IMG/VR virus record: IMGVR_UViG_3300014204_000373
Source of the DNA: a virus
Reading direction: 5' to 3' (one strand)
Length of the DNA: 39,232 nucleotides
In this document: piece by piece, positions 12,000-12,947 of the stretch
Layout of the letters: every line of letters begins with the position of its first letter
How positions within the stretch are numbered: the stretch's first letter is position 1
The notes under the pieces: generated by a model
What the model saw: the letters and a program-made list of their open reading frames with translations, nothing else
Databases searched by the model: none
What the model was told of the DNA's origin: nothing
Program-made: the position numbers and the translations under genes

Positions 12000-12443
12000 T
12001 CAAATCACCCAAGGGCGCTCATACCGGCTCAGAATAGGTTCAGACTCAGATACTTGGAAAGTCTTAGGTAACGGAAACCTCTTGAAGCGCTCGGTAGCTT
12101 CTGCGATAAACTGGTGAGAGAGGAGCATTCGATAGGACAAGGCGATACCCACTTGCCAAGCCTCCTCGTGGAGTATCACATGCAAACAGTGCTGTTTCAG
12201 GGGCTTGACCCCACGGACACTGAAGAACTCCTTGAAGTACTCAGTGAGTTGTTCGTACTTGAAGGGCGCGCTGAATTGGATACTTTCAATCTCTAATGGG
12301 CGACCATATCTAAATAGTGTGACCGGATCTCCAGGCTTCAAACCCAACACATAACTACCCTCCCCTTCGGACCATCCTGTGTAGATGGCGCGAGTCCCAA
12401 TGGACTTTACAGTCCATCTGATGGGGATGTAGTGGGTTGACAT
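12000..12443 (-). CDS. hypothetical protein with the C-terminal tag ...LSRYERPWVI
   Basis: ORF track. The ATG directly abuts the stop of the upstream tagged gene (TGAATG). Confidence 0.55.
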   Translation of the reverse strand: MSTHYIPIRWTVKSIGTRAIYTGWSEGEGSYVLGLKPGDPVTLFRYGRPLEIESIQFSAPFKYEQLTEYFKEFFSVRGVKPLKQHCLHVILHEEAWQVGIALSYRMLLSHQFIAEATERFKRFPLPKTFQVSESEPILSRYERPWVI

Positions 12444-12947
12444 TCAGATCACCCAAGGGCGTTCGTACCTGGAAACTCGACGAGTAGGCTCTGAAGGTAG
12501 GTTACCCGCGAAGATGGTTGGTAGCTCTACCCCTTCGAAGTCAGGAACTAGGTTCGCTATTGTGAATCCGAAAGCCAGTGTCATAGTGAGTATTGACCCT
12601 TCGTGCGCACTACTCATGAGCACTACGTAAAGGGTACCCTCATCGAGCCCGAATAGATTGAATCGTTGACCAAAAGCTTCCAGATCCCTGGAGTGTCTCT
12701 TCAACGCAACAGCGATAGATTGCTCATCCTGTGCAGTAAATGTGATCAGAGGAAGTTGAACAGAACCTTCGCTGTTATGGGCCCCGGTGAGACGATCCCC
12801 AGTATACCAACTGGTTTGATGAGCTCCGATGATTCCAACATCCCCCTCGACGTTCTTTGTTAGAACATTGACAAACCGGTGTTCTCGGGTGAACTTCACC
12901 AGATTGTCGGATGAGGGTTGAAAAAACCACCAGCGAGTCTTTGGCAT
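12444..12947 (-). CDS. hypothetical protein with the C-terminal tag ...RVSRYERPWVI
   Basis: ORF track. Tandem with 12000..12443. The tag codons GGGTGATCTGA immediately precede the next ATG. Confidence 0.55.
   Translation of the reverse strand: MPKTRWWFFQPSSDNLVKFTREHRFVNVLTKNVEGDVGIIGAHQTSWYTGDRLTGAHNSEGSVQLPLITFTAQDEQSIAVALKRHSRDLEAFGQRFNLFGLDEGTLYVVLMSSAHEGSILTMTLAFGFTIANLVPDFEGVELPTIFAGNLPSEPTRRVSRYERPWVI

What the first reader, a model, noticed from the sequence alone, without database searches (positions are those of the whole stretch)
12000..12947. Shared C-terminal peptide tag [S/T]RYER-x-[W/P/L]VI-stop on at least 8 unrelated small proteins
Eight proteins with unrelated cores end in the same peptide. 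The C-termini are ...IPTRYERKWVI (1554..1961), ...SRYERPWVI (12000..12443), ...SRYERPWVI (12444..12947), ...TRYERDPVI (23395..23646), ...SRYERDPVI (23643..23915), ...SRYERGWVI (25407..25856), ...TRYERKLVI (25853..26092) and the plus-strand ...RAQRPWVI (3888..4211). The cores differ: Cys-rich proteins, 4-Cys proteins, acidic helical proteins and a paralog pair. At the DNA level the variation sits almost only at synonymous positions (Arg AGG/CGG/CGA/AGA, Tyr TAT/TAC, Glu GAA/GAG, Ile ATT/ATC/ATA). The amino acids are invariant except at two tolerated positions. That pattern points to selection on the peptide rather than on the DNA. A conserved extreme-C-terminal tag of this kind looks like a sorting, docking or cargo-loading signal, as encapsulin cargo peptides are. 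It could also be a virion-packaging or ejection signal, a class-II PDZ-type ligand (hydrophobic-x-hydrophobic-COOH), or a protease or degron recognition signal. The tagged genes are often in tandem (A/B, F/G, C/D), as expected for a cargo family. The same genome encodes a full-length major vault protein shell homolog. A tag-directed loading of these proteins into a vault-like compartment is a testable hypothesis. I know of no description of such a system.
Basis: partly seen in the sequence, partly recalled or inferred. Interest (0 to 1): 0.85.

Follow-up and report, generated by a model that had tools for sequence, protein, structure and literature searches.

The report
Shared C-terminal tag on huge-phage proteins
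In one clade of very large bacteriophages, dozens of otherwise unrelated small proteins end in the same 11-12-residue peptide (…R-[V/L/I]-S-R-Y-E-R-x-[W/P]-V-I) on a flexible linker; this looks like a portable address or docking tag whose receptor is still unknown and which has not been described before.

Summary
Seven minus-strand ORFs in the window end in [S/T]RYERx[W/P/L]VI-stop, against 0 in 100 shuffles, and one plus-strand ORF carries a decayed copy. Related contigs of up to 443 kb added more than 70 further tagged ORFs. The 59 studied in detail fall into about 31-34 sequence families with no detectable similarity to each other. They include a three-helix membrane protein, Cys-rich proteins, helical proteins and beta-rich proteins. 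The motif is strictly terminal (59 terminal copies, 1 spurious internal). It follows a Pro-rich linker, and AlphaFold2 predicts it to be disordered. Its codons vary at synonymous sites (Ser AGY and TCN, Arg CGN and AGR), so selection acts on the peptide. Whole-collection scans find it only in this phage clade. The neighbouring 876-aa gene is a genuine full-length major vault protein homologue. However, vault homologues in other huge phages and in candidate-phyla bacteria come without the tag, and one tagged protein is membrane-anchored. The vault-cargo idea is therefore possible but unproven. Best reading: a portable C-terminal docking or targeting peptide for one common receptor, most likely a phage-built assembly (capsid or vault shell). 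A protease or hub tether is the main rival.

The parts
1554..1961 (-). Tagged ORF, 135 aa, Cys-rich (CxxC...CxxC); tail ...NQVIPTRYERKWVI-stop (TAG). Tag plus stop is about 1554-1592.
   Evidence: The orthologue in the 443-kb genome (L036 5281-5703) is 73% identical and keeps the tag.
3705..4211 (+). ORF with a decayed tag, ...KQTRAQRPWVI-stop. The invariant Tyr and the Ser/Thr are lost.
   Evidence: The orthologue L003 18606-19040 ends SRYDRPWVV. L042 has ...LHERPWVI.
12000..12443 (-). Tagged ORF, 147 aa; tail ...SESEPILSRYERPWVI-stop. No gene starts directly downstream.
   Evidence: Orthologues in L003, L012 and L042 keep the tag.
12444..12947 (-). Tagged ORF, 167 aa. Folded beta-rich core (residues 1-137), then a Pro-rich disordered linker and the tag ...PSEPTRRVSRYERPWVI-stop.
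   Evidence: Five homologues at 56-59% identity keep the tag while the linker varies. In the AlphaFold2 model the core has pLDDT about 80-90 and the tail (138-167) has pLDDT 31-37 with no secondary structure.
23395..23646 (-). Tagged ORF, 83 aa, helical; tail ...AVRTRYERDPVI-stop. Paralogue of 23643-23990.
23643..23990 (-). Tagged ORF (115 aa from the first ATG; public gene aa); tail ...TRIKSRYERDPVI-stop. Its stop overlaps the start of the next gene (ATGA).
25407..25853 (-). Tagged ORF, 148 aa; tail ...APPVRRVSRYERGWVI-stop.
   Evidence: Orthologue L010 3764-4207 is 73% identical and keeps the tag.
25853..26134 (-). Tagged ORF (93 aa; public gene aa), 4 Cys; tail ...KASIPTRYERKLVI-stop. The only Leu at position -3.
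8750..11380 (-). Full-length major vault protein homologue, 876 aa. It is context and one candidate receptor; no link to the tag has been shown.
   Evidence: Pfam MVP_shoulder. The profile hits solved rat and human MVP at E=2.6e-48. AlphaFold2 model with repeats, shoulder and cap helix. Homologues listed.

Best explanation
The tail is a portable short linear docking motif. Its consensus is P-rich linker, then R-[V/L/I]-[S/T]-R-Y-[E]-R-x-[W/P]-V-I-COOH. It hangs on a disordered, proline-rich tether at the extreme C-terminus of many unrelated small accessory proteins of one clade of huge phages. I propose that the tag binds as an extended peptide to one common receptor. The free carboxylate and the V-I pair would sit in a hydrophobic pocket, and the invariant Arg-Tyr-x-Arg would make polar and aromatic contacts. 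All tagged proteins would thus be brought to the same place.

The use I think most likely is targeting or loading into a large phage-built protein assembly. That assembly could be the capsid interior, by analogy with the T4 capsid-targeting sequence on its fast-evolving internal proteins and with encapsulin cargo peptides. It could instead be the co-located major-vault-protein shell.

What is shown:
- The motif exists.
- It is strictly terminal.
- It is selected at the peptide level.
- It sits on unrelated cores.
- It sits on a predicted disordered tail.
- It is confined to one phage clade.

What is inferred: that it binds a single receptor, and which receptor that is. I put about 0.85 on the docking-tag claim and about 0.4 on the shell-targeting use. 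Within shell targeting, the capsid and the vault shell are roughly equally likely. The confidence given for this entry (0.45) is for the statement as a whole, including the favoured use.
For: - Chance is excluded: 7 matches against 0 in shuffles.
- Whole-collection scans hit only same-clade contigs plus a few out-of-frame or stray matches.
- Peptide-level selection: codon information is three-periodic, Ser uses AGY and TCN, and Arg uses CGN and AGR.
- Position: 59 terminal copies against 1 spurious internal copy in 163,000 residues of six-frame ORFs.
- Portability: 59 unique tagged ORFs of 47-317 aa fall into 31-34 families with no hhalign link. They include a three-helix membrane protein, Cys-rich proteins, helical proteins and beta-rich proteins.
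- Linker: 12.9% Pro against 5.0% in the cores.
- Orthologues at 56-59% identity keep the tag while the linker drifts.
- AlphaFold2 gives a confident core and an unstructured tail.
- Tagged proteins are ORFans, with no Pfam or PHROG hits. None of about 18 Pfam-annotated proteins in clade loci carries the tag.
- Tagged genes cluster in tandem in accessory, counter-defence-like regions around the MVP gene. This resembles the hyperplastic internal-protein loci of T4-type phages (my knowledge).
- A real MVP shell gene lies amid the tags.
Against: - No receptor was identified. No PDZ, TPR, protease or capsid gene was recognised among the roughly 50 window and locus proteins scanned.
- A conserved tagged family is an integral membrane protein with a cytoplasmic coiled coil plus tag. 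That fits poorly with enclosure in a capsid or vault.
- In one related contig about a third of the genes in the sampled 43 kb are tagged. That is many for virion cargo.
- MVP homologues elsewhere lack tagged neighbours.
- Expression timing could not be established.
Confidence: 0.45

Rival explanations
1. The tag is a degron, or a tether to an AAA+ protease or another enzyme hub. It would bind a host or phage unfoldase or protease (ClpX, ClpA, Lon, FtsH or a PDZ protease) or another common enzyme. It could time the turnover of the tagged proteins, as an ssrA-like composite tag does. It could instead make them adaptors that deliver bound host targets to the hub, as the C-terminal ClpX-binding peptide of SspB does, or the poxvirus PRANC/F-box tails.
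For: - The architecture of a folded domain, a flexible linker and a short C-terminal peptide is that of SspB-type adaptors (my knowledge).
- The tag ends in a basic stretch followed by hydrophobic residues, loosely like the MuA-type ClpX signal RRKKAI (my knowledge).
- This reading tolerates a membrane-anchored tagged protein.
- It also tolerates a very large number of tagged, fast-evolving ORFans in counter-defence regions.
- No annotated enzyme carries the tag.
Against: - At 11-12 near-invariant residues the tag is much longer than known degrons.
- An acidic residue at -4 in 13 of 59 tags is unlike the MuA-type signal.
- No phage is known to tag dozens of proteins for proteolysis.
- The W-type pattern, the only one scanned there, was absent from 185,579 bacterial and archaeal genomes. 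The tag therefore does not copy a host signal.
Confidence: 0.3
2. One reading: the tag is a cargo-loading peptide for a vault-like compartment built by the phage MVP homologue.
For: - The MVP homologue is genuine and full length.
- It lies inside the tag-rich region in all syntenic genomes, with two or three tagged genes directly upstream.
- Phage-clade MVPs have a clade-specific acidic disordered loop at about 326-340, which could complement the basic tag.
- Eukaryotic vaults load PARP4 through a portable C-terminal module (my knowledge).
Against: - MVP homologues of 25-27% identity in huge phages LR756500 and LR756501 have no tag within 50 kb.
- Homologues of 43-53% identity sit in bacterial chromosomes without tags.
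- Tags occur at 157-162 kb in the 443-kb genome, while the MVP gene is at 57-60 kb.
- One tagged family is a membrane protein.
- The known vault cargo module is a domain of about 160 aa and not a peptide.
Confidence: 0.15
3. The tail is a substrate-recognition motif for an enzyme that modifies the C-terminus, for example the R2K.2 ATP-grasp peptide ligase encoded among the tagged genes of a related contig. RimK acting on ribosomal protein S6, or tubulin tyrosine ligase, would be the analogues.
For: - An R2K.2 ATP-grasp gene (PF18299, E=7e-39) sits at L008:3430-4200, between tagged genes.
- This family is predicted to ligate peptides onto proteins and is linked to ADP-ribosylglycohydrolases (PMC4431377). 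An ADP-ribosylglycohydrolase is in the window at 28156-29271.
- A strict need for a free C-terminus fits this reading.
Against: - The ATP-grasp gene was seen in only one locus and not in the window or in syntenic loci.
- R2K.2 occurs in many phages without this tag (PMC4431377).
- There is no precedent for one such ligase acting on dozens of substrates.
Confidence: 0.05
4. The motif is simply the conserved end of one highly diverged protein family. It would be an integral structural element and not a portable tag.
For: - By eye, several tagged proteins of 140-190 aa share an N-terminal aromatic strand (…W-W/…W-x-L) and a 'LYVVL…AFGFT'-like pattern. Some families may therefore be remote paralogues.
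- Tandem paralogues exist.
Against: - No family pair reaches 20% hhalign probability.
- The cores range over a three-helix membrane protein, zinc-ribbon-like Cys-rich proteins, 83-aa helical proteins and a 317-aa low-complexity protein.
- The tail is predicted to be disordered and detached from the core.
- The linker is variable in length and sequence.
Confidence: 0.05
5. It is a nucleic-acid-level element. The conserved sequence would serve as a ribosome-binding site or translational-coupling signal for the next gene (GGTGAT resembles a Shine-Dalgarno sequence), or as a terminator or recombination site.
For: - Five of eight window tags overlap or abut the next start codon (GTGATATGA, GTGATCTGAATG).
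- Convergent tagged pairs form an inverted repeat of about 50 nt.
Against: - Conservation is three-periodic, with two-box Ser and Arg codon switching.
- Three window tags and all convergent pairs have no coupled downstream gene.
- Shine-Dalgarno-like sequences are rare upstream of genes in this genome.
Confidence: 0.02

Closest known systems
T4 capsid-targeting sequence on internal proteins (IPI, IPII, IPIII, Alt)
   Same: A terminal peptide of about 10 residues is shared by otherwise unrelated, fast-evolving small phage proteins. These proteins are encoded in plastic accessory loci, and several act against host defence. The tag brings them to one assembly, the prohead core.
   Different: The T4 signal is N-terminal and is cut off by the prohead protease. 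The sequences are unrelated. Here the tag is C-terminal and needs the free end. Neither cleavage nor packaging has been shown.
Encapsulin cargo-loading peptides
   Same: The architecture is the same: a folded cargo, a flexible Pro/Gly/Ala-rich linker, and a conserved peptide of about 10 residues at the extreme C-terminus. This arrangement is found on unrelated cargo families. The peptide binds the inner face of an HK97-fold shell, which is evolutionarily phage-derived.
   Different: The consensus is different (GSL-type core against RYxRx[W/P]VI). No encapsulin gene was recognised nearby. Encapsulin systems have one to a few cargo types per shell, whereas here there are dozens.
Vault cargo module (INT domain of PARP4/VPARP binding MVP)
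   Same: An MVP shell gene is present. The concept is the same: a portable C-terminal module that docks cargo inside the vault.
   Different: INT is a folded domain of about 160 aa and not a 12-mer. Eukaryotic vaults carry two or three protein partners. MVP homologues in other phages and in bacteria lack the tag.
ssrA tag and the C-terminal ClpX-binding peptide of SspB
   Same: Both are C-terminal peptides of about 7-11 residues on flexible tails that tether proteins to an AAA+ machine. ssrA is composite, with an adaptor-binding part and a protease-binding part. This tag also looks bipartite: R-x-S-R-Y-x-R, then x-[W/P]-V-I.
   Different: There is no sequence match. ssrA is added co-translationally and not gene-encoded. 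The SspB peptide occurs on a single family of adaptors, not on dozens of unrelated families.
Peroxisomal PTS1 and poxvirus PRANC/F-box tails
   Same: One C-terminal signal on many unrelated proteins, or on many rapidly diversifying viral paralogues, connects them to a single receptor.
   Different: These are eukaryotic systems with different sequences and receptors (Pex5 TPR domain; Skp1). No bacterial or phage counterpart is known.

Membership tests
Encapsulin cargo-loading peptide | Short conserved peptide at the extreme terminus, after a flexible linker, on unrelated cargo proteins | tested here: met
   Strictly terminal (59 against 1). Pro-rich linker. Disordered tail. 31-34 unrelated families.
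Encapsulin cargo-loading peptide | Consensus with a Gly-Ser-Leu-type core (for example LTVGSLRR) | tested here: not met
   The consensus is R[VLI][ST]RY[E]Rx[WP]VI, with no GSL core. The encapsulin consensus is quoted from my knowledge.
Encapsulin cargo-loading peptide | Adjacent HK97-fold encapsulin shell gene | tested here: not met
   No encapsulin or capsid Pfam or PHROG hit among the large window ORFs. Only part of the genome was available.
Vault cargo (INT-domain type) | MVP shell protein encoded | tested here: met
   ORF 8750-11380(-). Profile against solved MVP gives E=2.6e-48. AlphaFold2 architecture.
Vault cargo (INT-domain type) | Cargo carries the folded MVP-interaction (INT) domain of about 160 aa | tested here: not met
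   The shared element is 11-12 residues and disordered. Tagged proteins have no Pfam domain.
Vault cargo (INT-domain type) | Physical enclosure of the tagged proteins in MVP particles | not testable with these tools
   This needs co-expression or purification.
T4-type capsid-targeting sequence | N-terminal tag removed by the prohead protease | tested here: not met
   The tag is C-terminal. No shared N-terminal sequence was found across families.
ClpX C-terminal recognition signals (ssrA-like LAA; MuA-like RRKKAI) | C-terminus matching -LAA, or a basic run followed by a small hydrophobic residue | tested here: inconclusive
   The tails end R-x-[W/P]-V-I. There is no LAA. The basic character is partial, with D or E at -4 in 13 of 59.
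Class II PDZ ligand | Hydrophobic-x-hydrophobic-COOH | tested here: inconclusive
   W-V-I fits (34 of 59). P-V-I (23 of 59) fits poorly. Conservation extends 8 residues further than a PDZ ligand needs. No PDZ protein was found in the window.

The most novel reading that the evidence does not exclude
A clade of huge phages uses a gene-encoded 12-residue C-terminal address tag to load dozens of fast-evolving small effector proteins into a phage-encoded vault (MVP) shell. This would be a virus-built, cargo-addressed protein organelle in bacteria. It would also be the first functional context for prokaryotic or viral vault proteins.
Probability: 0.12. Interest if true: 0.92.

Novelty: new variant of a known kind. 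Interest (0 to 1): 0.72.

Why it matters
Terminal address tags are how cells and viruses route many different proteins to one destination; peroxisomal PTS1, encapsulin cargo peptides and the T4 capsid-targeting sequence are examples. This is a new tag with very high information content. It is carried by more than 30 unrelated protein families, and in places by up to about a third of the genes, in uncultivated phages of 400 kb and more. Nearly all of those genes are otherwise unannotatable.

Finding the receptor would assign a common destination or fate to dozens of ORFans at once. It could reveal a new packaging, compartment or proteolysis-hijacking system in huge phages. It would also give a compact, portable 12-residue handle for engineering.

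The tag sits next to a genuine vault-protein gene, and the nearest cellular relatives of that gene are in candidate-phyla bacteria. This makes a long-standing question directly testable: what do vault proteins do outside eukaryotes?

Tried and rejected
- **Megablast** of 12 kb of the window against 50,697 phage records: no match.
- **Census by protein database.** A 40-aa tail profile yielded only 7 candidates and 2 hits, because the word index needs several shared words. A HMMER search of 1.84 billion representatives with a window-tail profile listed only 5 hits at E<=0.001. At least three of these duplicate window proteins and the other two are tagged relatives. DNA-pattern scans worked instead.
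- **MVP relatives in IMG/VR** by peptide patterns: none. The method finds close relatives only.
- **Pfam and PHROGs** on tagged proteins: nothing.
- **hhalign between core families:** no link.
- **Literature searches** for the peptide and for phage C-terminal targeting motifs: nothing relevant.
- **Expression timing.** I tried to infer it from two upstream motifs, but could not assign either to an early or late class.
- **Shine-Dalgarno or coupling explanation:** considered and rejected.
- **Phosphorylation-site reading** of R-x-S: rejected, because the Ser position is Asn in 3 of 59 tags.
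Full report

A six-frame scan of the 39,232-base window finds seven minus-strand ORFs that end in [S/T]RYERx[W/P/L]VI-stop. Their stop codons are at 1554, 12000, 12444, 23395, 23643, 25407 and 25853. One plus-strand ORF (3705..4211) ends RAQRPWVI. The back-translated pattern MGN TAY GAR MGN N6 GTN ATH TRR matches exactly these seven places. It matched none in 100 dinucleotide-preserving shuffles. About 8 of roughly 75 genes in the window are tagged.

The window lies at positions 25,845-65,076 of a 65.6-kb metagenomic contig. 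Four more tagged genes lie just outside the window on that contig.

**2. The tag is specific to one phage clade.**

Scans of whole collections with the Trp-type and Pro-type DNA patterns gave these results:
- In IMG/VR (2.9 million contigs), four contigs with ORFs that end in the tag were hit, plus one stray match with no tagged ORF.
- Among 241 million metagenome records, about a dozen contigs with 50-56% G+C were hit, along with a similar number of stray or out-of-frame matches. The genuine hits include a 443-kb contig.
- Among 185,579 bacterial and archaeal genomes, there were only two stray hits.

Homologues of one tagged protein and of the neighbouring vault-protein gene lie on contigs of 225, 435 and 443 kb. 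The element is therefore a huge phage, or something phage-like. Its vault-protein gene has 25-27% identical relatives in the published 462-kb and 735-kb huge-phage genomes LR756500 and LR756501.

**3. Anatomy of the tag.**

I collected 59 unique tagged ORFs and found more than 15 further ones later. Counting back from the stop codon, the consensus of the 59 is:

| Position | Residues (count out of 59) |
|---|---|
| -14 to -12 | rich in P, K and R |
| -11 | R 32, I 11 |
| -10 | L, V or P |
| -9 | S 45, T 11, N 3 |
| -8 | R 59 |
| -7 | Y 59 |
| -6 | E 46 |
| -5 | R 59 |
| -4 | variable |
| -3 | W 34, P 23 |
| -2 | V 58 |
| -1 | I 58 |

The motif is strictly terminal. There were 59 terminal copies against one spurious internal match in 163,000 residues of six-frame ORFs.

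Nucleotide conservation is three-periodic. The invariant arginines use both CGN and AGR codons. The serine uses both AGY and TCN, which differ at two or three bases. Selection therefore acts on the peptide, and the copies are old and independently maintained rather than recently copied DNA.

The 20 residues before the tag hold 12.9% Pro, against 5.0% in the cores. In the family of 12444-12947, homologues at 56-59% identity keep the tag while the linker changes in length and sequence. AlphaFold2 gives that protein a confident beta-rich core (residues 1-137, pLDDT about 80-90). Its tail (138-167) is unstructured, with pLDDT 31-37.

**4. The cores are unrelated.**

With the last 14 residues removed, the 59 proteins fall into 34 BLASTP families. 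Iterative HMM searching reduces this to 31. No pair of family profiles reaches 20% hhalign probability. The cores are 47-317 aa long and include:
- a conserved family with three predicted transmembrane helices, a positive-inside cytoplasmic coiled coil and then the tag;
- Cys-rich, zinc-ribbon-like proteins;
- 83-aa helical proteins;
- beta-rich proteins of 140-190 aa.

None has a Pfam or PHROG match. Conversely, none of about 18 Pfam-annotated proteins in clade loci carries the tag. That set includes the vault protein, NAD kinase, an HD hydrolase, GmrSD_N, ADP-ribosylglycohydrolase, RNA ligase, NT5C, Thg1, an HU-like protein, an R2K ATP-grasp, a radical SAM protein, a Tad2-like protein and a nucleoside hydrolase.

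Tags can decay. The window's RAQRPWVI corresponds to SRYDRPWVV in the 54%-identical orthologue.

**5. Nucleic-acid explanations are rejected.**

Five of the eight window tags overlap or abut the next start codon, and GGTGAT resembles a Shine-Dalgarno sequence. Three facts argue against a nucleic-acid role:
- the codon pattern described above;
- the tags with no coupled downstream gene;
- the rarity of Shine-Dalgarno sequences in this genome.

Convergent tagged pairs share eight bases (GTNATATRAC), so that V-I-stop is read on both strands. This reflects genome compaction and is not the cause of the motif.

**6. The vault-protein link.**

ORF 8750-11380(-) is a genuine full-length major vault protein homologue:
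- Pfam finds the shoulder domain.
- A 42-sequence profile hits solved rat and human vault protein at E=2.6e-48.
- The AlphaFold2 model shows beta repeats (1-536), a shoulder (538-634) and a 180-residue cap helix.
- Phage-encoded vault proteins have been noted in silico before (bioRxiv 10.1101/2023.11.10.566534).

- The gene sits inside the tag-rich region in all syntenic genomes, with two or three tagged genes directly upstream.
- Phage-clade copies have an extra acidic disordered loop at about 326-340. Homologues at 43-46% identity from candidate-phyla bacteria lack it.

Against the cargo idea:
- Homologues at 43-53% identity lie in bacterial chromosomes next to ribosomal genes, and no tags were found in the flanks that could be read (about 10 kb on each side in L040 and L041).
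- LR756500 and LR756501 have no tag within 50 kb of their vault gene.
- Tags also occur at 157-162 kb in the 443-kb genome, while the vault gene is at 57-60 kb.
- A membrane-anchored protein cannot be enclosed cargo.

**7. Most likely mechanism.**

The shown features are those of a portable short linear docking motif that uses its free carboxyl end:
- high information content;
- an obligatory free C-terminus;
- a disordered Pro-rich tether;
- unrelated, fast-evolving ORFan cores in tandem arrays within accessory, counter-defence-like regions.

I put about 0.85 on that general claim.

For its use, I favour targeting to a phage-built assembly, at about 0.4. The closest conceptual precedents are the T4 capsid-targeting sequence on hypervariable internal proteins, encapsulin cargo peptides and the vault INT module.

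The main rival, at about 0.3, is a tether or degron for an AAA+ protease or another hub. That reading copes better with the membrane protein and with the very high density of tags, about a third of the genes in one 43-kb sample.

A C-terminal modification substrate is a minor rival. It is suggested only by an R2K.2 ATP-grasp gene among tagged genes in one related contig.

**8. Novelty.**

No paper in the library contains the full-length tag peptides searched. The only matches, to the short string 'SRYER', were in four unrelated papers. I found no known family that this tag fits: the encapsulin, T4, vault-INT, ClpX-signal and PDZ-ligand definitions are each unmet or inconclusive on at least one tested feature. 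I class it as a new variant of a known kind, namely terminal address or docking peptides, with the receptor still to be found.

Noticed in passing
window 2686(-), 7373(+), 15857(-), 19525(-), 20797(-), 23013(-), 34425(-), 37525(+): A sigma-70-like promoter motif, TTGAGA-N17-(TG)CGTAATA. At most of these sites an ATG follows only 5-6 bases after the -10 element, which suggests leaderless mRNAs. CGTAATA occurs 10 times against 1.9 expected.
   Followed up: partly
window 1544(-), 6842(+), 13461(-), 13503(+), 24630(-), 26856(-), 29106(-), 31604(+) and others: A second upstream motif, GGTGTA(G), lies 8-12 bases before many start codons (30 matches against 16.6 expected). It heads the operons that contain the tagged pairs 12444/12000, 23643/23395 and 25853/25407. 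Its nature (promoter of another class, or an unusual ribosome site) is unknown.
   Followed up: partly
L040 10001-12577 (GCA_027425155.1), plus P0026, P0034 and P0041: The closest non-phage relatives of the phage vault protein (43-53% identity) are chromosomal genes flanked by ribosomal-protein and translation-factor genes. They lie in MAGs, two of which NCBI names Candidatus Uhrbacteria. This hints at gene exchange with candidate-phyla bacteria, or at such a host.
   Followed up: partly
window 8750-11380(-), residues about 326-340: Vault proteins of the phage clade carry a strongly acidic, disordered loop (for example GMNDESEDPADEQ). Bacterial homologues at 43-46% identity lack it.
   Followed up: no
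L036 1420-1480; L009 11543-11603; L042 20896-20956; also L016 and L037: Convergent tagged gene pairs overlap by 8 bases at GTNATATRAC, so that Val-Ile-stop is encoded on both strands. In L036 the two tag-coding arms form an imperfect inverted repeat of about 50 bases, which might double as a bidirectional terminator.
   Followed up: partly
L008 3430-4200: An R2K.2-family ATP-grasp gene (PF18299, E=7e-39), a predicted protein or peptide ligase, sits among tagged genes in a related IMG/VR contig. It was not found in the window or in the other loci.
   Followed up: partly
window 6858-7343, 15326-15850, 16949-17782, 18815-19345, 28156-29271, 31618-32202, 36245-37258; L043 1-2708: The neighbourhood looks like a counter-defence and nucleotide or NAD-centred island. 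It holds NAD kinase, an HD (RelA/SpoT-type) hydrolase, GmrSD_N, ADP-ribosylglycohydrolase, NT5C, a deoxyribosyltransferase-like protein and RNA ligase. A related phage has a Tad2-like protein and a nucleoside hydrolase. A 2026 preprint reports ADP-ribose bound in the vault shoulder.
   Followed up: no
L013 (LR756500.1) 11706-17016; L014 (LR756501.1) 11314-11850 and 44452-46983: Other huge phages with vault-protein genes show their own recurrent C-terminal tails. In LR756500, six tandem and partly paralogous proteins end ...NADDFGFFDN. In LR756501, two proteins of 178 and 843 aa end ...DPYGEE(E/N)W(N/S)(D/E).
   Followed up: partly
[not shown]
   Followed up: no
L043 19815-19817 and 20435-20437; L048 868-870: A sister tail...LTRYQRIM(R/K)S(L/F)(S), keeps the T-R-Y-x-R half of the tag but replaces the x-[W/P]-V-I end. 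This suggests the tag is bipartite.
   Followed up: no
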